This document shows positions 483 to 30,416 of a DNA stretch of 33,466 bases, one piece after another (position 1 is the stretch's first letter; each line of letters starts with the position of its first letter). The notes beneath the pieces were generated by a model. It was not told where the DNA came from. It worked only from the letters and a program-made list of their open reading frames with translations, and searched no databases. The position numbers were made by a program, and so were the translations under genes. This DNA is from an uncultured bacterium. Its GTDB lineage: Bacteria; Patescibacteriota; Minisyncoccia; Phycocordibacterales; UBA9973. The stretch lies in NCBI GenBank assembly GCA_903862375.1, contig CAIOXR010000054.1:1-33466 (forward strand). The letters are read 5' to 3'.

Positions 483-707
483 ATGAACGAATTAACTTAT
501 GGAATGAAAGCAGTCGGATTAACATTTAATCCATCTGGAGACGAGAAAGTAACAGAAGTAAAAACACTTTGTGCTAAAGTTATTGATTTGCTTAATGAAT
601 TAAGAGCAGACCAAAGAAACGAACAGAGTAGATTATTGTCTGTCGCTATTACAGAAATGCAGACAGCTCAAATGTGGGCAGTAAAATGAATTACTTGGAA
701 AGATTAG
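483..707 (+). CDS. small helical protein, possible Acb2/Tad-type nucleotide sponge
   Basis: Track ORF 483..689 ends at a TGA. Read-through adds G-ITWKD up to TAG 705-707. Motifs GLTFNPSGD...LLNELRA...SVAITEMQTAQMWAVK(G)IT match my recollection of a common small phage helical-hairpin family. The U-rich motif lies upstream (458-471). Confidence 0.7.
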
Positions 708-2711: not shown

Positions 2712-3665
2712 TTAAAGTTTAATAAATTTCATCCCTATTTTAGTTCAACCTGTTTTATCTATCTCTACCTCTATTATCCAACCTCCTATAGTATTATCTA
2801 GGTTGAATCTTTTAGCAAGTAGATTCTCTTTTAAGAACGCTCAAGGTAAAAAACTATGTATCTTACGATAAAATACATATAGTGCGGTATGTCGGTGACC
2901 CGCAGCAAACACATTTGGTTGGTTCTTAGGATCTATATTCTCTAATAACTTCTGTATTTTATATGATTTTGCGTAACTCATCCCTCAACCACCATGATGT
3001 AGATTGATATCAACTCCATTAAGTTTAATCCTAGCATCATAGAACCCTAGATTGATTAAATCTTTACGTACTTCACTTATAGCTCTACTTATATCTCAAC
3101 CAGTCTTTTTTAGAAATGACTCATCATGATTTCCGCCAATAAAGTAAGTATCTAATCATATATTAGGATAACTTTTGATTATATCTTCTAGTTGTGAATC
3201 AAAACCTATTTTGTCTTGTTCATAAATCTGACCTGTATATACACTATCTCAGTCCACTATATCTCATCAGTGCATAAAACATTCTACTCAATCAGATTTC
3301 GCTATATCATAAAATTCTCAAAGTTCGTTTCTAGCACACTCTTTATTACCTAGATGAGTATCGCTAACTAATCAGAACTTTAAATATCATGGTTCTCATA
3401 TAACTTTTTCTATATTTTGTTTAGAATCTAATTTTAATCTATAAAGTATCTCTTTAAGTTGTTCTGGAGTATATTGTTGTATCAAATCTAATTTCTTTTT
3501 CTCTTGACTAGAAAAAACCTCTTTTATCTCCTCCTTTTTGTATTGATGTCTTGCTACACTAGTCTTTCCTACACCTAAGATTTTTGCTATCTCTCTCTGA
3601 CTTTTTCACTCAGATGATAACTGCTTTATCTCGTTAATCTTTCATTGTTCAAGAGGTTTTTGCAT
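2712..3665 (-). CDS. HTH domain fused to a calcineurin-like metallophosphoesterase
   Basis: 317 aa, frame checked. N-terminal HTH is SQREIAKILGVGKTSVARH. Metallophosphoesterase motifs are LVSDTHLG, MHGGDIVDG (3249-3275; three of its Gly are TGA), GGNHD, HHGG and GHRH. Confidence 0.9.
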
Positions 3666-4970: not shown

Positions 4971-6860
4971 TTATGCTGTTGTTGGTACTGTTGTTGCTCC
5001 TGTATCTGTTAATACAATAGCCCCATTTACTAGAGATATTTTCCAGTAATTAAGACTTGTTCAAGTAGATTTAAGATATAGATTTCAACCTGTAACTACC
5101 AATCAACCAGCACTATTTAATGCTAATATATCGGCATATCCTCCTCCATTATTATCGTAACCCCAATATAATGAACCTGAAGTCGTAGCTCCTGATGTAG
5201 GTCTTACTTCATTTTTAAAATTAATAGTATTATCCGCTGCAGTAACCGTTGTATTCCACGCTCTTGCTGTAAATATTTGAGCTGGAGAATATCTAACTGG
5301 GACACCTGCCGTAGAAGCCGTATTACTTCTTATTAAAACTCCTGTATATGACGTAGTTGTAAGTCCTGCTCTATCTGATACTATCGTTCCAATAGCATTT
5401 ATGCCGCCTCTACCTGATACCGCTCCATCAAGAGTTATGTCACCTTTTATAGTAACGCCACCGTTACTACCTAAGTTCAGTATTTCTACATATCCACCAC
5501 CGTTATTGTCATATTTGAAACTTAATGAACCAGATGTAGTAGTCCCTGAAACAGGTATTACCTCTTGTCTAAAGTTAATTGAATTATCCGCAGCTGTTGC
5601 AGTTGTATTCCAAGCGTGTGCTGTGAAATCTAAAGTTGGTGAATATCTTACTGGTACACCTGCCGTTGAAGCTGTCGTTTCTTGAGCCCAAAATCCCACT
5701 GTAGAAGTAGTAGTTAAATTAGACCTATTTGAATAAACTCCTTGTATTCCAGTTATTGCTCCTGAAGCACCCAATGCACCAGTAAAATATCCAGAACCTC
5801 CAGAAGATAAATTAAACGCATTTACATACGCTGCACCAGCTCTTGAGTGGTCTATATAAAGCATATTAGAACTTGTAGCCGTTCCACTTGTTGCCTGATT
5901 ATATATTCTCCATTCACTAGCTTGGTCTACTGTCGTATCGGTTGTCCATCTGTGACCTCTGAAGTGAAGTTCTGGGGAATATTGAACGGTATTTACAGCG
6001 TCCGAAGCTGTGTCGTTGGTAAGAAGTAATCCAGCTGTATTTGTTGTTTTTATGTTGTTGTTATATATGGTCAATAATCCAGCAGATGATAAAGACATCC
6101 AGTCTGCGTAGCCACCACCATTATTATCGTAAGCCCAGTATAAAGAACCTGAAGTAGTAGCTCCACTAACTGGTCTGACTTCTTGTATAAAGTTAATAGT
6201 ATTAGAAGCTGGTGTCGTTGTATTCCACGCCCTACCTGTAAACCTTAAAGAAGGAGAATACCTAACTGGTGTTCCTACTAATGCTGCAGTACTTGAATTA
6301 AGTACAACCCCATCTGATGAAGTCGTTGTTAAGTTCGCTTGGTTAGAATTAAGAACTCCAGGGATACTTACACTTGAGCTATCTACATTAAATACCGATG
6401 CTGACGCACCACCATCTACTGCTCTACGTATATAAAACGAACCACCAGTATTTACTAAAAAGTAATTTGAATAGTGGTCTGTTGATGTCCAGTAATGAGC
6501 CTTAAAATCTAAAGTTGGTGAATTTTGAGCTGTATTTACTGCATCTGAAGCTGTATCGTTTAGTAAAAGTAATCCATCAGTATAAGCTGCAAGCAATCAA
6601 GGTCTGCTTATCGTAGGTGCTCCGCCTGTGATGGTTTGGGGCGTAGACTGATTAAGTTTTAAGAATACTGTTGGTGTAGTACCTGAGTCAAGCCAAGCGT
6701 TTGTTCCTGTATCTCGTACCCAAGTGGTATCTGTTGACCCTACAGTAGCGAACCATCAAGCCTGTCCAACAGGATAAGCTGCTGCTAACGCCGCATACGT
6801 AGCAAAATACCCTTTATCGTTGTAACTTCATCCTCAAGCATTTCATTTGATAAATTGCAT
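4971..6860 (-). CDS. tail fibre / receptor-binding protein with internal repeats
   Basis: 629 aa. Track ORF 5103..6596 extends both ways through TGA (ATG 6860, TAA 4971). The unit ..VRYSP..F..RAWNTT....N.INF..EV.P.SG.TTSGSL..YDNNGGGY occurs three times. TASDAVNT.Q.SP.L.F..H.WT occurs twice. Confidence 0.9.
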
Positions 6861-13147: not shown

Positions 13148-15034
13148 TTAAAAAACATCATTAACTGTATCTGTTTTAATAGATAAATCAAATACCTTAG
13201 GTGTCTTTGTACTTGAACTAGAATTTAGTACAACTTTGAATTGTACCTTATAGAACTTCATACCAGCTGCAGCAGTAATAAAATCTTGTGTCATTACATT
13301 ACTTCTACCATAAGCTGTTGTTGTACCTGTTCAAGTTATAGTCTTTAATAAAGTATAACTTCAATCATCTATCTTAATATATATCTGTATGTTAGTTACT
13401 GACCCTTGTAATTGATAACCTATCTGCATCTTCTCTAGTTTCTTTATAGTGCTGAGTTTATCTCGTACTATAGGATTATATTCTACGAAACCTGTAGTAG
13501 TATAACTAGGAGATGTTGTATTGTTTATATTCTGTAATGAATGTTTGTATACTCGCGGTTTAGTAGCTATTAATCAAGAAGAATAAAGTGCTAATCAATC
13601 TAATCACACCTGTGTTGCTGTTATATCTCATATAGTAGATAGATAATTTTTACTTAGACTTTCTGATAATCAAGGTAACTCGCTACCAAACGAATATAAT
13701 CAACTATTACTTACCATATAGAGTATATCTCTATTAATATCTACTGTCTGTCATCGTTGTGATGTATTACTTATAAATCACATCTTATCTGTAGCATACG
13801 AGTTTATATATGGACTTTGATATAGTTTTACTTTATCCCAACCACTAACTTTATATAACTCCCTATAATTATCTTTACCTGTTACTACATAATCAAATGT
13901 TCAATTATTTTTTACAGCTAATATATTTTTTCTTGGTCGTTCTATCATCTCATCTCGTTCTTTACTTACTCAATCTCGTAGATACTGTCTAGATCTTCAA
14001 TAAAAAGTATAAACACCAGTATCAACACTATATTTATTAGTATAAACATATATTCTTGTTCATATATTAGTCATTCAAATAATAATCTCATCTTTAGCTA
14101 ATATTAAACTATTAACAGATGTTCGTGTAGCTGAAGCAGATATATCTATCTGTGTTACTGTATTATTTCAAGCTACATATAAATAAGGATATAAATTTAT
14201 AAATGGATGATATGTAGAAATTTCCATATTATCTCAAGTTAGTGTTCCAGCCTCTATTTTTGTTGCTTGTACTGATACATCATAAAGAAATATACCTAAA
14301 TCAGCACTTGCAGTAAAAGCAAGTGTTTCGCTAGTCGATGCTGTTGTTCTCCAAAACGAATAAGTACCAGAAGCTGTTACCGTTCATAGTGTTGCTCATC
14401 ACATCTTAACAACTAGAGATGTTCAAGCAGAAAATAAACATCTGAATTGTACTCTATATTCTGTAGTATTTAATACTGTTAATACTTGTGATAAGTCAGA
14501 ACCAGTACCTGCTGTATGTATAGCTCTACCTCATGGTATACTCCAATCAGTACCTTTAGTCCAATCACTATCAGTAATAAACGTACCATTAGTAACAACT
14601 GTTGTTCATAATAATCATAAATCTGCTTTGGTTCAATTATAAACTCGTCTATATAATGCAGCTGTTCACATAACTACTCAATATAAGTTATTTCAACTTC
14701 TAAGTATTGTTGTATTAATATAAAAATAAGAACTATCATATAATGCTCATCAGTTATTAGTATAATTATAACTAGGTGTATAGATATTACCACTATAAGA
14801 TACAAAGTGTGCATAAGTAGCATTATTAATATACATAGCAGTAATTCGATCACTAGAACTATTACTTATCTGACATACAGAAGTAGATAAACTATCTAAA
14901 CAATAATATTTAGCACTCTCTCTAATATTAACTCATTCAGTATTATAAACACTACCTAAAAATCAGTATTCCTCATTAGAGATACCTCTAGTCACATCAC
15001 TTCGTGTTAAATTATTGTTTTGTTCTTTAGCCAT
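13148..15034 (-). CDS. large tail protein, nozzle/tubular-B-like by position
   Basis: 628 aa. ATG 15034 (the only possible start) to TAA 13148, every codon checked. Overlaps the upstream gene by 8 nt (ATGGCTAA). Confidence 0.85.
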
Positions 15035-15746
15035 AATATGAAAGATCTGGGATAAATGATTCTTCTCATAATATATTTTTATTCATCATCTGATTTATTA
15101 CTCTTAACTTTTCACTCTCATAAAACTGTTTAGCTTGTATTCTTCTATCTTCAAAGTTTACTCACATATTACCATAGAACCGATATTTAAGTCATTCTAC
15201 TATTATTGGATGTGCTGCTGGTGGTATTATTATCATACCCTCAACATCTTCAGTACTAGCTGATTTAGGTACTACTGCTTTAGGTCACATTATCTGTAAT
15301 CCACTAGTTATACTTGTATCAGGTGTAGGGAAGATAACTATACTATCACTACCTACTAAATAAGCTGTAGGTTGGTTTTTATCTGTTGTTGCAGCATAGA
15401 AATCAGGTAAGTTTAAATATCATTCAACATATTTAACTTGTACTGGTGTATAATAAGTATCTGTGCTTCTAAGTTTAACTCATATCTTTACTGCTTGATT
15501 TATTCAGAAAGTAGAAGTAATTAATGTTGAAGCTGCTATAGAAGCAGGTAATGTATATGTAGAAGTTCAAGCAACAAGATTAATATTAAATTGGTTCATC
15601 TTATCTCAAGGACTCTCATTACATATATCTCGCCAAAAATCTTCCTCCACTTGATTAAGAAACTGGAAAGATTGTGTAGCACTTACTATATCAGTAGTAC
15701 ATCCTGTTTGGTTTCTTGCTGTAGATATAATTAAACTAGGTATCAT
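15027..15746 (-). CDS. adaptor/tubular-A-like virion protein (by position)
   Basis: 239 aa, MIPSLIISTARNQTGCTTDIVSATQSFQFLNQVEEDFWRDI...STYTLPASI...IVIFPTPD... Frame checked. Confidence 0.8.
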
Positions 15747-15763: not shown

Positions 15764-16612
15764 TTAAATCATATTTAGTAGGAAATTTGCATTAGTTGTT
15801 GGTGCTACATATTCTACCATAGTTCGAGTACCGTCTGTTGTAAATGTATGTAATGTATAAGCACCAAATGTAGATACCGCTCAACCTGTACTAGATGTAC
15901 TTACTCAATCAGAACCATCAGTCTTATATGCTATAACTACTACTCAATCTCATCATTTAGCTCAAGTTACAGTTCAACTATTTCAACCTCATCATCCTCA
16001 TCCTCATCAAGTTCAATCTGTTCCTGCTGTACCATTAGTAGTATTACTTCATCAAGCTCATCATCAGTTAGCTGCTGTTCACGCAGTTCAAGCAAAATAT
16101 ACTCAACCTCAACCACCTCAAGCGAACCATCCACTTGCTCATACTCCTGTTCAAAATACTGCTGAATAATTTACTCCTGCTCATCAGTTACCTGCTGTTC
16201 AAGTAGATGCGTTTGTTCATACGCTTCACATACCTCCTCATCCTCATCAAGGGTATGGACTTGATGTATTATTTACTCATCAATTATATCATGGATTACT
16301 AGTACCTCATATCTTTCAAACTGTACTTCATTCTCAAGCTCATCATCAACATCAACCATTTCTACCATTATTATCATTAGCACCAGAACCACCTCAACCT
16401 AATCAAGTTAATGTGGAGAACGTAGTATTTAATCAATATCATCATGGTATTCAAGCTGGTGCTTTAGTTCAAGCTCATCAAGTTCATATATCTATTGCGT
16501 ATGCTTGTGCTGTTACTGTATGTGCTGCAGAATAAGTTGCTCATCAAGCTCCTCATCCTCATCAAGAACCTCATCATCATCATCATACTACTAATGCCTT
16601 AATCGCTGCCAT
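15764..16612 (-). CDS. glycine-rich domain protein (tail-fibre associated)
   Basis: 282 aa, MAAIKALVVGGGGGGSGGGGGAGGATYSAAH...GDGVVVIAYKTDG... There are 94 Gly, and 65 of them are encoded by TGA. Checked codon by codon. The gene is invisible to standard-code ORF finding. Confidence 0.9.
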
Positions 16613-19309: not shown

Positions 19310-20518
19310 TTAGGCAACAACTCTAACTCTGATAGCTCTGTTTGCACCTTCTGCGAATGTCTTGATACCATATAATGTGTAGCAAAGATAGTCGTATCCA
19401 GTTTTAAGAGGTTCTTTGTTCTGTTGTACTGTAACGTCTGCTTGGATAACCAAATCAGTACATCAATATTGACCGAATCGGCAATCTGCAACTTGAGTAG
19501 ACCAAGTTCCATAAGATGTGCTTGCAGGTGTGTAAGAACAAGTTATGTTACCATAAGATGTGATGGTAAGAACGTGTGCAGCATAACTTGCTGATACTCC
19601 AGCATTTTTAAGAATATCTCTATTAGCTTGTGTGATGTCGATATAAGTATCTACTCCAGGTGTTCCTGTACCGTTGATAGCAGTAACCAAAGTAGCCATA
19701 CATAAATCTTCTGAGTTTTGGATAGAGAAGTGTCCTACTCCTACTGCAGTGTTATCAGCATCAGCTGTGAACGCTACACCAGCGATAGTAACAATATCTG
19801 TATCAACTAGGATAGCAGAAGTAGTGAACACGTTTGTATGTTTAACTGAATTAGATACAAATACGTTCATATTACCCCAAGTACCCATATAACCCATACC
19901 TTTAAGTGTTCCTTGTAACGCTGCATCTGCTTGGTTGAAACCATTAGCAAGATTAGTCTGTTGCATAAGAGCTTTAAGATTAGGTGTTACAACGAAGAAC
20001 CAAGGTGTAGTATCTTCGATGTTTGCTGTGTTAGCTTTAGCTTCAACAGTAGTGAAAAGTTTGAATACGTTAGATACAGATACTGTAACTGGGTTTCCAG
20101 ATGTTCCTCCGAAATCACCATCAGTTACTGTGTAAGTTGAGTTAGCTACTTCAGCCATGAATGCACCATCAATGTTTTTCTTCAAAGCATATCCGATACG
20201 ATCAATCATTTTATTAGCTACATCATATTTGTTCTGGATCTTATCAATGTTGTCGATATATACTGTAGCTTCTTTTGTTTGATCAACAGTAAGATATTCG
20301 TCAGTAATAGTTACATCTTGAGCAGTTACTGCTGTTCCTTTAGTATAAGAGTTTACTGAAACATCTGAGTGGTACGGTCTATGTACTTTAATACCGTTTG
20401 TTAAAGTTGCTCTTTCTTCCATATTAGAAATCTCTCTTGCTACTAATTTAGCTTTAAGAAGATTCTGCATCCTTGCTGATCGATACTCTGGAGATGCGGC
20501 GGTAAGTGAATTTGCCAT
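19310..20518 (-). CDS. major capsid protein (HK97-fold type)
   Basis: 402 aa. Track ORF 19463..20518 (351 aa) ends at the only TGA in the gene. Read-through adds 51 codons (the TGA glycine plus 50 aa, ...TLYGIKTFAEGANRAIRVRVVA) up to TAA 19310. It lies after a scaffold-like gene and before a terminator. Confidence 0.9.
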
Positions 20519-23628: not shown

Positions 23629-25020
23629 TTAATATAAAAATCAACTATAATCTACCTCAAATACTCATTCTAACGAACTATTAGTAGCTTCTAGATCTCT
23701 TACCACCCATCGCATCCTCATCATTATAGCATCAGCGAAGTCTGAACTCCTATTTATCCTTTTTCTTAATAACTCTTTAGATTCTATCATTATCTTACCT
23801 TCTTTATCAGTATTTTTAACATAAATATTCTCTAATTCTCTCATTAGGTTCTCTTTAGTACTTCATTCGTTTTCTATCCTTATTAATCTTTTTTCCATAA
23901 GTTCCTTTAATTTGAAATAGCATTGAGTTTTCATATTACCGAAGTTTTTGATAACAAAACCAGTCTTTTCTGAGTTATTCTTAAACGGTGTAGCTGAATT
24001 AACGAAATTAACACACCCCCTTAACATATCTGCTACCCCTCCTCCTACTCAATCACTATCTATCAAGATATTAGCTCTCCTTATCTCAAATTCTGTCTCT
24101 AACTCCTTTATCCTTTGTGCTACCTCTGTAGTAGTGTTCTGTGCATACGTGATAATCTTAAAACATTTAAGTCATTTCCATAGTGCTATAACGGTTTTAT
24201 CGTCTCAAAGTCTAGCTACATCACAAGTTAAATACGCAGTTGGGTCTGATTCTATGTTATTCCTAAATAAATCATATATCTCGTCATATCTAAACACTTT
24301 ACCTTCATCATCACTCCAATCAAAGTTACCATAAAGCAACCTCTGTCTAGTTATCTCGTCAGAGTTCTGTAGCTGTACTATATATTCAGGGTCGATATAC
24401 TTGTTATCAGTAGCTAAAGCTGGTATAAATTGTCTTATTTCTGATATTTTCTTCTCTTTATATGGTATCCAGAACCTTTCCTTTACGTGTCATTGGTCAG
24501 GGTTAAATGTCTCTAGTAATTTAGGGATAATACCATATTCTCTGTTCTTTTGTCTTGAAATACGTGTCTTTAGGATAGTAATAGCCTGTAAATCTACCTC
24601 GTTTGATTCGTCTATAAACCCTCAAGTCAACTCTAACGACCCAAATCTAGTGTATAATGGGTCTGATGGCTGCTGAGCACAATCTAATAGTAGAATCTCT
24701 GATTTATTAGGGAACTTAATAATATTATACTTCTTATCTAACTTTCACATAAGCTCTAACGGTATCTGATAATCCTCTCAGAACTTATAATATGAGTTTA
24801 ATGTCGTTTTCATTAAGTTAGAAAGCTCTCTACGTCACATAAAGTAACGCACTCAAGGATATTTATTAACCATCATCCATAACCAAGCTACTCAGATATA
24901 TGATTTACCTCATCATGCCCCTCATCCATACCCTACCTCTCTAGTTACGTTATCCATAAGATACTGCATAGCCATCGCTTGTTTCTCTGATGCTTTAAAC
25001 TCGAGTTTGAATTCTTGCAT
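23629..25020 (-). CDS. terL: terminase large subunit
   Basis: 463 aa, every codon checked. P-loop is VGYGGGAGGGKSY (24901-24927; three of its Gly are TGA). Walker B-like segment is LELTGGFIDESNEV. Plus-strand track ORFs 23948..24334 and 24401..24676 are antisense. Confidence 0.93.
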
Positions 25021-28872: not shown

Positions 28873-29613
28873 ATGGAAGGTCGAATAAAAATACATAGGA
28901 AAATCAATAAACGATGACGGTATACAGATGCTAATACTTTCCGTGTATTTTTTCATCTGCTTACAATAGTATCATATTGAGAACAAAATTGGAGATGACA
29001 AAAAACAATACCATGACAATGTACAGTATGAAGAAAATATCTAGCTCACGAATTACATCTATCAGAGCAACAAGTAAGACGTGCAATAATCAACCTACAA
29101 ACAACCAACGAAATAACAGTCCAGACAACCAACAGATTTTCTTTGATAACTATATGCAAATGGGAAGAATACCAATCAGAAGAAATAAAACAACCAACAA
29201 AACAACCAACAAAAAGTTTAGAATTCAACCAACAAACAACCACTACTAAAGAAATACAAGAAGAAAAGAAAGAAATAAATATAGATATACCAAAATTTCT
29301 AAAACAAACAATTAAAGAATTTATAGAGATGAGAAATAAAATAAAAAAACCATTAACAAATAAAGCATTAAATATGCTATTAAACAATTTGAATAAGCTA
29401 GGCAAGAATGACCCCGAAAAAATTATGATACTTGAACAATCTATATTTCATTGCCGACAAGGTATATTTCCCCTTAAAGATGAATATAAACTTGATAACC
29501 CTAGAATATTTAGAAAATATATGGAAGAGTGAAAATCTGAATATCTTAAAGAAATGCTTGGTATGGAAAAATTTACTGAATTAAAAGATATTTATCTTAT
29601 TACCCCTAAATAA
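28873..29613 (+). CDS. replication initiator-like protein with N-terminal winged HTH
   Basis: 246 aa, frame checked; contains track ORF 29143..29532. ...FRVFFHLLTIVSYGEQNWRGQKTIPGQCTVGRKYLAHELHLSEQQVRRAIINLQTTNEITV... is the usual phage replication/DnaD-type wHTH pattern. Confidence 0.8.
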
Positions 29614-30416
29614 TGGAAATAAATTATAAACAGACACCATTTACTCGAGGACTTAAAAAGATAGACAAGGCACTAGGAAAACCAGATTATCGTGAACTTA
29701 TAATATTTTTCTGATATTATTCATCTTGAAAGACTGAATTTACATATTTTATGGCTAGGAAAAATATAAAGAATTGACAGAAGGTATGTTATATGTCACT
29801 AGAACTTCCTGAATATGATATGAAATTAAGAATAGCAAGAAAAATGGCTTGAATTAAAAAATATGATTTCCAGACTTGAAATTATAATGAAACACAAAAA
29901 CAGATTATGGAAACTAATTTTAGAGAAATAGATAACCTGACGGATTTATATATTGTAAAACCAAAAACAAATGAAATATCAGAAATAGAAAATATAATAA
30001 GACAATATTATGATAAATGATGTAGATTATTTATTATAGATAATTTAGATAAAATAGGGTGAAATGAAATAGATAATATAAGATACCAACAAATATCATC
30101 AACACTTCAAGACTTAAAAAACGAAAACAATATATGTATATTTCTTATACATCACGCTAAAAAACCATGAAGTAAAGACAGACAATATGAACCAGCTGGT
30201 ATATCTTGAAGTAGATGAAGTCAGAAAATTATAGATAATGCTACACAATCAATAGAGATATGGAGAGATTTAGACCCAGAACAACTTGATGAAAAACACA
30301 AAGCAAAAGTATATCTTTATCAATATAAAGATACAATGGAAGGTAATAATAATGTAATAGATATTTATTTTAATAAATGAAATTATGAGGAAGAATACGA
30401 AAAACCAATCTTTTAA
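29613..30416 (+). CDS. DnaB C-terminal-like (RecA-fold) replicative helicase/ATPase
   Basis: 267 aa, frame checked. Walker A is GYYSSGKT (29712-29735), and both of its glycines are TGA. Walker B is LFIIDNLDKIG. Also present: ...HHAKKPGS... and AGISGSRGSQKIIDNA. The start overlaps the upstream stop (TAATG). Confidence 0.88.

What the first reader, a model, noticed from the sequence alone, without database searches (positions are those of the whole stretch)
5103..6596. TGA-free, GC-richer, internally repeated core inside a tail-fibre gene whose termini use TGA normally
In the 629-aa fibre gene (4971-6860), the first 88 codons contain 5 TGA(Gly) out of 13 Gly and the last 44 codons contain 3 TGA. 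The central 497 codons contain 53 Gly and not one TGA. This core is visibly GC-richer and consists of repeated modules: VRYSP..F..RAWNTT...INF..EV.P.SG.TTSGSL..YDNNGGGY three times, near 6281, 5663 and 5318, and TASDAVNT.Q.SP twice. The pattern suggests a receptor-binding cassette recently acquired from a standard-code donor and grafted onto native ends. Alternatively there is selection against TGA in this segment. The repeats also make it prone to recombination.
Basis: seen in the sequence. Interest (0 to 1): 0.65.

Follow-up and report, generated by a model that had tools for sequence, protein, structure and literature searches.

The report
Standard-code fibre cassette in code-25 phage
A phage that reads TGA as glycine carries a tail-fibre gene whose middle 497 codons contain no TGA, most likely because that part was copied from phages using the ordinary genetic code; this shows that gene pieces can cross a genetic-code boundary.

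Summary
The TGA pattern is real. Gene 4971-6860 (-) has TGA at codons 6, 9, 11, 35, 88, 586, 592 and 600. The 53 Gly codons between them are all GGN, whereas 50.6% of Gly codons in the rest of the genome are TGA (P about 6e-17).

The "GC-richer core" is not real. The core is 0.390 GC and the termini 0.409. The gene's GC excess sits at codon position 2, so it reflects amino-acid composition. GC3 is ordinary.

TGA = Gly is confirmed, and the phage is an SU10-like podovirus.

The gene is a chimera:
- aa 1-60 is a native anchor shared with sister code-25 phages, and it uses TGA.
- aa 89-585 is five copies of an unannotated ~93-aa beta repeat.

The repeat's closest relatives look non-recoded or sit in proven standard-code phages. 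Similarity to the best relative starts right after TGA codon 88. Sister phages carry unrelated, TGA-rich genes at this locus. Two other recoded phages show the same TGA-poor patch around the repeat.

Best explanation, at about 0.7: modular fibre exchange from the standard-code phage pool that has not yet acquired TGA.

The rival is selection against TGA. It does operate on the capsid gene, but it does not predict a switch inside one gene.

This is a new variant of a known process.

The parts
4971..6860 (-). Tail-fibre-like gene, 629 aa when TGA is read as Gly. It is the last large gene of the tail module.
   Evidence: ORF under TGA-sense. It lies downstream of the SU10 adaptor and large tail genes. 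Homologues carry Mtd_N or PTL_trimer fibre domains. There is no direct Pfam or PHROG hit.
6681..6860 (-). Native N-terminal anchor, aa 1-60. TGA at codons 6, 9, 11 and 35.
   Evidence: 64% identical to the N-terminus of the L015 fibre, and related to the L013 161-aa protein; both are code-25 sisters. TGA and GGN alternate at conserved Gly sites.
6597..6680 (-). Junction segment, aa 61-88, with the motif TVFLKLNQSTPQTITGGAP. It ends in TGA codon 88 (6597-6599).
   Evidence: The motif is shared with the standard-code fibre of L009 and with recoded P0003/L011. The origin of this short piece is unresolved.
5106..6596 (-). TGA-free core, aa 89-585: 53 Gly codons, all GGN. Inferred to be a cassette acquired from the standard-code phage pool.
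   Evidence: for the TGA statistics. for the nearest relatives.
6357..6596 (-). Repeat unit 1, aa 89-168. A partial, divergent copy (the TASDAVNT.Q.SP type).
   Evidence: hmmsearch with the module profile, score 25.5.
6054..6332 (-). Repeat unit 2, aa 177-269 (the VRYSP...AWNTT...DNNGGGY type).
   Evidence: Score 142.8. Nearest module is P0016_471_563, 81% identical.
5772..6053 (-). Repeat unit 3, aa 270-363 (the TASDAVNT.QYSP type).
   Evidence: Score 108.6. Nearest module is P0016_817_910, 82% identical.
5436..5717 (-). Repeat unit 4, aa 382-475 (VRYSP type).
   Evidence: Score 132.2. Nearest module is P0016_929_1021, 74% identical.
5082..5363 (-). Repeat unit 5, aa 500-593 (VRYSP type). Its last residues overlap the first C-terminal TGAs (codons 586 and 592).
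   Evidence: Score 129.5. Nearest modules are P0017 and P0004, both in standard-code loci, 67% identical.
4974..5105 (-). C-terminal tail, aa 586-629. TGA at codons 586, 592 and 600, which is 3 of 6 Gly.
   Evidence: No homologue was found in any fetched locus.
19310..20518 (-). Major capsid gene, used as a comparator. It is TGA-depleted (1 of 28 Gly) through conserved selection, not transfer.
   Evidence: Weak Phage_capsid_2 hit. Its orthologues in four sister phages have 2/29, 5/27, 4/31 and 1/28. Conserved Gly sites stay GGN.
15764..16612 (-). Glycine-rich protein, used as a comparator. 65 of its 94 Gly codons are TGA. It is internal proof that TGA = Gly.
   Evidence: Runs of five consecutive TGA codons. 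Translated with TGA = Gly it hits Pfam Gly_rich_2 at E=1.9e-15.

Best explanation
The gene encodes the tail fibre of an SU10-like podovirus whose whole genome reads TGA as glycine (code 25, the code of Absconditabacteria and Gracilibacteria).

The fibre is a chimera. The first ~60 residues are the lineage's own virion-attachment anchor. Residues 89-585 are an array of five ~93-residue beta-rich repeats that entered by recombination with a fibre gene from the standard-code phage pool.

A standard-code coding segment has no in-frame TGA, so a code-25 host reads it correctly. The code difference therefore does not block import in this direction. The imported segment has not been resident long enough for GGA-to-TGA changes to build up. 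Under neutrality, 0 of 53 puts the per-codon TGA probability below 5.5% against an equilibrium near 50%, which is less than about 12% of one relaxation time.

Shown:
- the TGA distribution;
- the genetic code of the genome;
- the chimeric homology pattern;
- the genetic code of the homologues for which DNA is available;
- the TGA-rich state of the equivalent genes in sister phages.

Inferred:
- the direction and relative recency of the transfer;
- that P0016 comes from a standard-code phage;
- that the repeats form the fibre shaft or receptor-binding part.
For: Genetic code:
- Coding density is 0.40 under the standard code and 1.23 with TGA as sense.
- The terminase Walker A motif reads GYG#GA##GKS, where # = TGA.
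- The Gly-rich protein hits Pfam Gly_rich_2 only when TGA = Gly.

TGA discontinuity:
- Core 0/53, termini 8/19, genome 347/686.

Homology:
- The repeat family has 3933 cluster representatives. Of the best 158, only the window protein, P0009 and P0003 look recoded.
- All four full window modules have their nearest neighbour in a non-recoded protein (67-82% identity). The best recoded module reaches only 56-65%.
- P0016 is 93% identical over aa 89-225, and the match starts right after TGA codon 88.
- L001, L004 and L009 are proven standard-code loci.

Native anchor:
- aa 1-73 is 64% identical to the L015 fibre N-terminus.

Sister phages:
- Genes at the fibre position in L012-L015 are unrelated beyond the anchor, and 31-73% of their Gly codons are TGA.

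TGA/GGN turnover:
- TGA and GGN interchange freely at conserved Gly sites of the terminase, adaptor and portal orthologues.

Recurrence in other recoded phages:
- The L003 fibre has a 17-Gly TGA-free patch around the repeat, inside TGA-rich flanks.
- P0003/L011 has 5 TGA in its first ~75 codons and then a single one, inside the invariant DNNGGGY motif. TGA is therefore tolerated in the repeat.

Not an assembly artefact:
- The identical protein sits on 14 contigs from different assemblies, with 0-2 nt differences.

Plausible venue:
- Liu et al. 2023 (PMC10746230) predict that code-25 hosts are targeted by both code-25 and code-11-compatible phages.
Against: - No donor DNA exists for the closest relative P0016, because its sample has no file. 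Its genetic code is inferred from its normal Trp content.
- The DNA that is available from standard-code homologues is only 70-77% identical, and four-fold sites are saturated (0.40 identical). None of them is the donor.
- Apart from TGA there is no compositional sign of foreign DNA. GC3 and the other codons are ordinary.
- Selection against TGA demonstrably exists in this lineage, in the capsid gene. The core's 0/53 is statistically compatible with capsid-level depletion (p=0.35).
- TGA codon 88 lies after the junction motif that is itself shared with standard-code fibres, so the left boundary is not a single clean breakpoint.
Confidence: 0.7

Rival explanations
1. Selection against TGA inside the repeat array. 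The segment may be old in this lineage, but TGA is purged there because decoding by tRNA-Gly(UCA) is slower or more error-prone and the glycines of the beta repeats are structurally critical.
For: - TGA avoidance by selection is real in this lineage. The capsid gene has 4-19% TGA in five phages, while conserved Gly sites in other orthologues switch freely.
- Core vs capsid gene is not significantly different.
- All three recoded phages that carry the repeat have few TGA in it.
Against: - Expression-level selection acts on the whole mRNA, but the same gene's termini have 42% TGA.
- Conserved Gly sites in the anchor use TGA.
- Fibre-position genes of sister phages have 31-73% TGA.
- Poorly conserved linker glycines in the core are also all GGN.
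- In P0003/L011 the TGA-free zone extends about 250 aa beyond the repeats, and one TGA sits in the invariant DNNGGGY motif.
- In L003 the TGA-free patch does not follow the module borders.
Confidence: 0.18
2. Reverse or two-way flow. The repeat array is kept TGA-free because it is exchanged continually in both directions between code-25 and standard-code phages. Only TGA-free copies can be exported, so the window copy need not be a one-off recent import.
For: - Recoded and standard-code carriers of the repeat occur in the same sample series: BUCK21 scaffolds, ERZ273130xx and ERZ14268xx.
- P0003 (recoded) and P0002 (standard code) share a nearly identical stretch.
- Code-11-compatible phages are predicted to infect code-25 hosts.
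Against: - Only 3 of the 158 best family members look recoded, so the pool is overwhelmingly standard-code.
- No case of export was observed.
- This is a refinement of the main explanation rather than a contradiction of it.
Confidence: 0.08
3. Assembly chimera or chance. The contig wrongly joins reads from a standard-code phage to a code-25 phage, or the TGA-free run is a random fluctuation.
For: The contigs are metagenomic, and related fibre genes co-occur in the same samples.
Against: - The identical 629-aa protein occurs on 14 contigs from independent samples and assemblers, with 0-2 nt differences in the three fetched.
- The reading frame is continuous across both borders.
- The chance probability is 6e-17.
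Confidence: 0.02

Closest known systems
Modular (mosaic) evolution of phage tail fibres, as in T-even gp37/gp38 and the P2/Mu/lambda fibre genes, where a conserved N-terminal anchor carries a swapped distal part. This rests on established knowledge, not on a test made here.
   Same: The N-terminal ~60 aa is conserved with sister phages. Everything distal to it is replaced by sequence whose closest relatives are in otherwise unrelated phages.
   Different: The exchange crosses a genetic-code boundary. It is visible as a codon-level footprint (no TGA-Gly) rather than through GC content or phylogeny alone.
Code-25 phages, and code-11-compatible phages, predicted to infect Absconditabacteria and Gracilibacteria (Liu et al. 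2023, mBio, PMC10746230).
   Same: The genome is dense in in-frame TGA = Gly, and genes end in TAA or TAG.
   Different: That work classifies whole genomes as either recoded or TGA-free. Here a TGA-free island lies inside one gene of a heavily recoded genome.
Stop-codon-recoded gut phages in which the recoded codon is confined to late genes (Borges et al. preprint, 10.1101/2021.08.26.457843, listed).
   Same: Use of the reassigned stop codon is uneven along a phage genome.
   Different: Here TGA is used in early genes on the + strand as well as in late genes. The exceptions are the capsid gene and the fibre core, not a temporal class.
Amelioration of horizontally acquired DNA (Lawrence and Ochman concept; own knowledge).
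   Same: A lineage-specific codon feature is missing from the acquired segment and is expected to appear with time.
   Different: The marker is a reassigned codon whose starting count in the donor is exactly zero. That gives a cleaner clock than GC drift.
SU10-like (Kuravirus-type) podoviruses.
   Same: The SU10 adaptor domain at 15027-15746 scores E=1.4e-9, above the Pfam cut-off. There is a weak SU10 portal hit, and the gene order matches.
   Different: The genetic code differs, the sequences are very divergent, and the fibre has no Pfam family.

Membership tests
Genome using translation table 25 (TGA = Gly) | Dense in-frame TGA; ORFs collapse under the standard code | tested here: met
   Coding density in ORFs of 100 aa or more is 0.40 under the standard code and 1.23 with TGA as sense. 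There are 347 in-frame TGA outside the fibre gene.
Genome using translation table 25 (TGA = Gly) | TGA aligns with conserved glycine, not tryptophan | tested here: met
   - The terminase P-loop reads GYG#GA##GKS.
- The Gly-rich ORF with 65 TGA hits Pfam Gly_rich_2 at E=1.9e-15 when TGA = Gly.
- In relative L011, TGA sits in the invariant DNNGGGY motif.
Genome using translation table 25 (TGA = Gly) | A tRNA-Gly(UCA) is available | tested here: not met
   ARAGORN finds no tRNA in the window. The tRNA would have to come from the host, or from the part of the roughly 40-kb genome that lies outside the window.
Phage tail fibre / receptor-binding protein | Position at the end of the tail-gene block | tested here: met
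   The order is adaptor, then four large tail genes, two small genes, then this gene. The order is the same in L003, L004 and L012-L015.
Phage tail fibre / receptor-binding protein | Match to a curated fibre family or fold | tested here: inconclusive
   - No Pfam or PHROG hit.
- Homologues carry Mtd_N (P0002) or PTL_trimer (P0003).
- The AF2 model of one repeat is all-beta with pLDDT 78.
- Foldseek finds nothing in the PDB. In BFVD it finds only weak hits (E 3e-3 to 5e-2) to large phage proteins, some named tail fibre.
Horizontally acquired gene segment (mosaic gene) | A sharp discontinuity in a lineage-specific marker inside the gene | tested here: met
   TGA is 8/19 in the termini and 0/53 in the core, p=6e-6.
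Horizontally acquired gene segment (mosaic gene) | The closest relatives of the segment lie outside the lineage, while the flank is native | tested here: met
   The nearest modules are in P0016, P0002, P0017 and P0004, which are non-recoded. The anchor is orthologous to the code-25 sister L015.
Horizontally acquired gene segment (mosaic gene) | The segment is absent from the same locus in sister genomes | tested here: met
   L012, L013, L014 and L015 carry other, TGA-rich proteins there.
Horizontally acquired gene segment (mosaic gene) | Atypical base composition or codon usage apart from the marker | tested here: not met
   GC3 is 0.197, within the genome's range. The codon log-likelihood ratio is +0.005, at the low edge of native genes but not outside them. 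Per-amino-acid usage is similar in native genes, the core and the donor-like gene.
Horizontally acquired gene segment (mosaic gene) | Near-identical DNA in a candidate donor | not testable with these tools
   The contigs of P0016 and P0003 have no DNA on file. Scans of IMG/VR, JGI metagenomes and GTDB genomes found no closer DNA.

The most novel reading that the evidence does not exclude
The ~93-aa fibre repeat belongs to a gene pool shared across the code boundary. The barrier acts as a one-way valve: TGA-free segments from standard-code phages can enter code-25 phages, while segments that have gained TGA cannot leave. The density of TGA-Gly codons would then be a usable clock for dating every acquisition in phages of Absconditabacteria and Gracilibacteria. 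This would also imply regular co-infection of code-25 CPR hosts by standard-code or code-11-compatible phages.
Probability: 0.3. Interest if true: 0.65.

Novelty: new variant of a known kind. Interest (0 to 1): 0.5.

Why it matters
A different genetic code is often thought of as a firewall against gene flow and viral infection. This gene suggests the firewall leaks in one direction at the level of gene segments.

A code-25 phage appears to have renewed its host-recognition apparatus from the far larger standard-code phage pool. The import stays visible because the donor's count of the reassigned codon is exactly zero.

If this is general, it offers three things:
- a simple, alignment-free way to find and roughly date imports in recoded phages;
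- evidence bearing on who co-infects uncultivated CPR bacteria;
- a practical shortcut, since the TGA-free core can be expressed unchanged in E. coli for structure and receptor work.

The side result also matters. Capsid genes in five related phages avoid TGA, while TGA and GGN interchange freely at conserved Gly sites in the terminase, adaptor and portal genes. This indicates that the reassigned codon is not selectively equivalent to GGN.

Tried and rejected
1. GC or GC3 as a sign of foreign DNA. Rejected: the core is not GC-richer than the termini, and the gene's excess is at codon position 2.
2. Synonymous codon likelihood ratio, window model vs L001 model. The core is intermediate (+0.005) but inside the native range, so the test is not discriminating.
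3. Pfam and PHROGs on the fibre protein: no family.
4. Profile search of the word-indexed protein database with the module alignment: no hit, probably because low-complexity words filled the candidate list. The exhaustive HMMER search did work.
5. IMG/VR scan with the core protein: nothing. A Gly-independent DNA pattern (VRYSP-7aa-AWNTT) found two standard-code contigs.
6. The same pattern on GTDB genomes gave 12 hits. Eleven are false positives in GC-rich Oscillospiraceae MAGs. One is a true standard-code hit, L025. This gave no host information.
7. The JGI metagenome scan returned only L011, which is the DNA of P0003's N-terminal half.
8. DNA for P0016 and for the rest of P0003 is not on file, and both are single-member clusters.
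9. Synonymous divergence to P0002 is saturated, so P0002 is not the donor.
10. AF2 plus Foldseek on one repeat: no PDB match and only weak BFVD matches.
11. I tested whether L001 could be a code-25-compatible phage with back-up stop codons. Read-through of its 12 TGA stops would add 1-49 codons, so it looks like an ordinary standard-code phage.
12. Suppressor tRNA in the window: none.
13. Length variants: the three fetched copies of the gene have the same length and differ by 0-2 nt.
Full report
**1. The observation**

The minus-strand ORF 4971-6860 is open for 629 codons only if TGA is read as sense.
- TGA lies at codons 6, 9, 11, 35, 88, 586, 592 and 600.
- The 497 codons between 88 and 586 (nt 5106-6596) contain 53 Gly codons, all GGN.
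- In the other 46 ORFs of the window, 347 of 686 Gly codons are TGA. The chance of 0 in 53 at that rate is 6e-17.
- Fisher tests give p=6e-6 against the gene's own termini (8/19) and p=5e-16 against the rest of the genome. The termini do not differ from the genome (p=0.49).
- Among about 100 genes in six recoded loci, this is the longest run of non-TGA Gly codons. The next are capsid genes with 24, 20 and 18, and another repeat-bearing fibre with 17.

- The core is 0.390 GC and the termini 0.409.
- The gene exceeds the genome mean (0.325) only at codon position 2 (0.55). That reflects a protein rich in Thr, Ser, Ala and Gly.
- GC3 is 0.197, which is ordinary for this genome.

**2. The genetic code and the phage**

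- Coding density rises from 0.40 to 1.23 when TGA is read as sense.
- TGA = Gly, not Trp. ORF 15764-16612 has 65 TGA, including runs of five, and matches Pfam Gly_rich_2 (E=1.9e-15) when TGA is translated as Gly.
- The terminase P-loop reads GYG#GA##GKS, where # = TGA.
- TGA is used in both the rightward early genes and the leftward late genes.
- No tRNA is encoded in the window.
- The phage is an SU10-like podovirus. It has an SU10 adaptor at 15027-15746 (E=1.4e-9), weak SU10 portal and capsid hits, and a terminase at 23629-25020.

**3. What the core is**

- The core holds five copies of one ~93-aa unit. The "VRYSP...DNNGGGY" and "TASDAVNT.Q.SP" motifs are variants of this unit.
- The unit has no Pfam or PHROG family.
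- An exhaustive profile search finds it in 3933 cluster representatives, 2132 of them at E<=1e-10. They are mostly 400-3000-aa proteins with several copies each.
- An AF2 model of one unit is all-beta with pLDDT 78.
- Foldseek finds nothing in the PDB. In BFVD it finds only weak matches to large phage proteins, some annotated as tail fibres.
- Homologues carry Mtd_N or PTL_trimer fibre domains.
- I therefore read it as a fibre shaft or receptor-binding repeat. This is an inference.

**4. Where the core's relatives live**

- Of the 158 best family members, only three have the excess Trp that marks a TGA-recoded gene translated with table 4: the window protein, P0009 and P0003.
- The closest relative is P0016 (1315 aa).
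  - Window aa 89-225 is 93% identical to P0016 383-519, window aa 80-261 is 85% identical, and window aa 262-469 is 77% identical.
  - P0016 has normal Trp content (2.0%) and no Trp at Gly-consensus columns in nine repeats.
  - Its N-terminus resembles that of the standard-code L009 protein.
  - Its DNA is not on file.
- The next relative, P0002, lies in a 42-kb phage in which 12 of 34 genes stop at TGA and none has an in-frame TGA.
- L004/L005 and L009 are also standard-code loci.
- Each of the four full window repeats has its nearest neighbour in a non-recoded protein (67-82% identity). The best repeat from another recoded protein reaches 56-65%.
- The available standard-code DNA is 70-77% identical to the core, and four-fold sites are saturated. 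None of these is the actual donor.

**5. The ends**

- aa 1-73 is 64% identical to the N-terminus of the fibre in L015, a code-25 sister phage (adaptor 49% identical). It is also related to a protein at the same position in L013.
- In that anchor, TGA and GGN alternate between the two phages at conserved Gly sites.
- aa 61-85 (LKLNQSTPQTITGG) is a junction motif also present in standard-code L009 and in recoded P0003.
- Similarity to P0016 starts at aa 89, immediately after TGA codon 88.
- The C-terminal 44 aa have no detectable homologue. Their native origin rests only on 3 TGA among 6 Gly.

**6. Tests of the rival explanation, selection against TGA**

I fetched four sister code-25 phages through their adaptor proteins.

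Selection against TGA is real in this lineage.
- The capsid gene has 1/28, 2/29, 5/27, 4/31 and 1/28 TGA in the five phages, against 45-82% in their tail genes.
- At conserved Gly sites the capsid stays GGN. In terminase, adaptor and portal orthologues the sites switch between TGA and GGN often; for example 12 of 29 sites switch in terminase vs L012.
- On counts alone, the core cannot be told apart from the capsid (p=0.35).

Four observations argue that the core is different.
- Selection on expression acts on the whole message, yet the termini of this gene use TGA at the genome rate.
- The genes at the fibre position in the sisters are TGA-rich: 18/29, 13/19, 61/83, 17/24, and 12/39 in the anchor orthologue.
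- Poorly conserved linker glycines in the core are also all GGN.
- In recoded P0003/L011 the TGA-free zone runs about 250 aa beyond the repeats, and its one TGA sits in the invariant DNNGGGY motif. TGA is therefore tolerated there.

The L003 fibre shows the same kind of patch: 17 Gly without TGA inside flanks where about half of the Gly codons are TGA. That patch does not follow the repeat borders.

**7. Artefact check**

The identical 629-aa protein is on 14 contigs from independent samples and assemblers. The three fetched copies differ from the window by 0, 2 and 0 nt and have the same length. A chimeric assembly is unlikely.

**8. Mechanism**

- The best-supported account is ordinary modular fibre exchange, with the distal part taken from the standard-code phage pool.
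- A standard-code segment has no in-frame TGA and is read correctly in a code-25 host. The reverse move is blocked as soon as TGA accumulates.
- Under neutrality, 0/53 bounds the per-codon TGA probability at 5.5% against an equilibrium near 50%. The segment is young relative to TGA/GGN turnover.
- Carriers of the repeat with both codes co-occur in the same sample series.
- Liu et al. 2023 (PMC10746230) predict that code-25 hosts are targeted by both recoded and code-11-compatible phages, which gives a venue for recombination.
- The array itself predates the transfer, because P0016 and P0002 have orthologous units in the same order.
- The internal repeats are only 69-85% identical, with at most 19 identical bases in a row. 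They are not an obvious recombination hotspot today.

**9. Verdict**

- The residual doubt comes from the missing donor DNA and from the demonstrated selection against TGA in the capsid gene.
- Fibre mosaicism is well known. The code-crossing footprint is a new variant of it. I found no paper describing it in two library searches, which is not proof that none exists.

Noticed in passing
window 19310-20518 (-); L012 5825-7036; L013 6268-7461; L014 5833-7053; L015 6084-7283: The major capsid gene avoids TGA-Gly in all five related code-25 phages (1/28, 2/29, 5/27, 4/31, 1/28), while their tail genes use it for 45-82% of Gly. Conserved Gly sites stay GGN in the capsid but switch freely in terminase, adaptor and portal. 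This looks like translational selection against the reassigned codon in the most highly expressed gene.
   Followed up: yes
window 15764-16612 (-): This is a glycine-rich protein (Pfam Gly_rich_2, E=1.9e-15). TGA makes up 65 of its 282 codons, with runs of five consecutive TGA. It lies just upstream of the adaptor gene (15027-15746) on the coding (minus) strand. It is the clearest internal proof that TGA = Gly.
   Followed up: partly
window 483-707 (+): A 74-aa protein matches the Acb2/Tad1 hairpin domain (PF24729, E=1.3e-14). That family comprises phage sponges for cyclic-nucleotide immune signals, so this is a candidate anti-CBASS or anti-Thoeris gene in a phage of a code-25 host.
   Followed up: partly
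L003 10001-12022 (Logan SRR22387764 contig, recoded): The fibre of an independent recoded SU10-like phage shows the same pattern. Codons ~259-404, which contain its single repeat, have no TGA, while the flanks have many (32 TGA in the gene).
   Followed up: partly
L011 1-2096 (JGI Ga0114951_10067853), which is the DNA of the N-terminal half of P0003: A third recoded fibre has 5 TGA in its first ~75 codons and then only one, at the third Gly of the invariant DNNGGGY motif. Later parts of P0003 are nearly identical to stretches of standard-code P0002.
   Followed up: partly
window 1-33466: ARAGORN finds no tRNA gene, so the window encodes no tRNA-Gly(UCA) of its own. Decoding of about 355 in-frame TGA must rely on the host, or on the ~6.5 kb of the genome outside the window.
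   Followed up: no
window 2712-3665 (-) and 29613-30416 (+): The first is a calcineurin-like metallophosphoesterase with an N-terminal HTH domain, sitting among small genes downstream of the fibre. The second is a DnaB-like helicase in the rightward early block. The strand switch between the late and early blocks lies near 26.3-26.6 kb.
   Followed up: no
L016-L024, L026, L027 (GTDB Oscillospiraceae MAGs): The degenerate DNA pattern for VRYSP-7aa-AWNTT hits a GC-rich (58-66%) locus in eleven MAGs, ten of them titled Oscillospiraceae. None of these loci encodes the repeat, so they are false positives that share some other conserved gene. Only L025 is a true hit.
   Followed up: partly
L001 10001-13297: The standard-code relative P0002 has a major tropism determinant N-terminal domain (Mtd_N, PF18454) ahead of the same repeats. 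I did not check for a diversity-generating retroelement in that phage.
   Followed up: no
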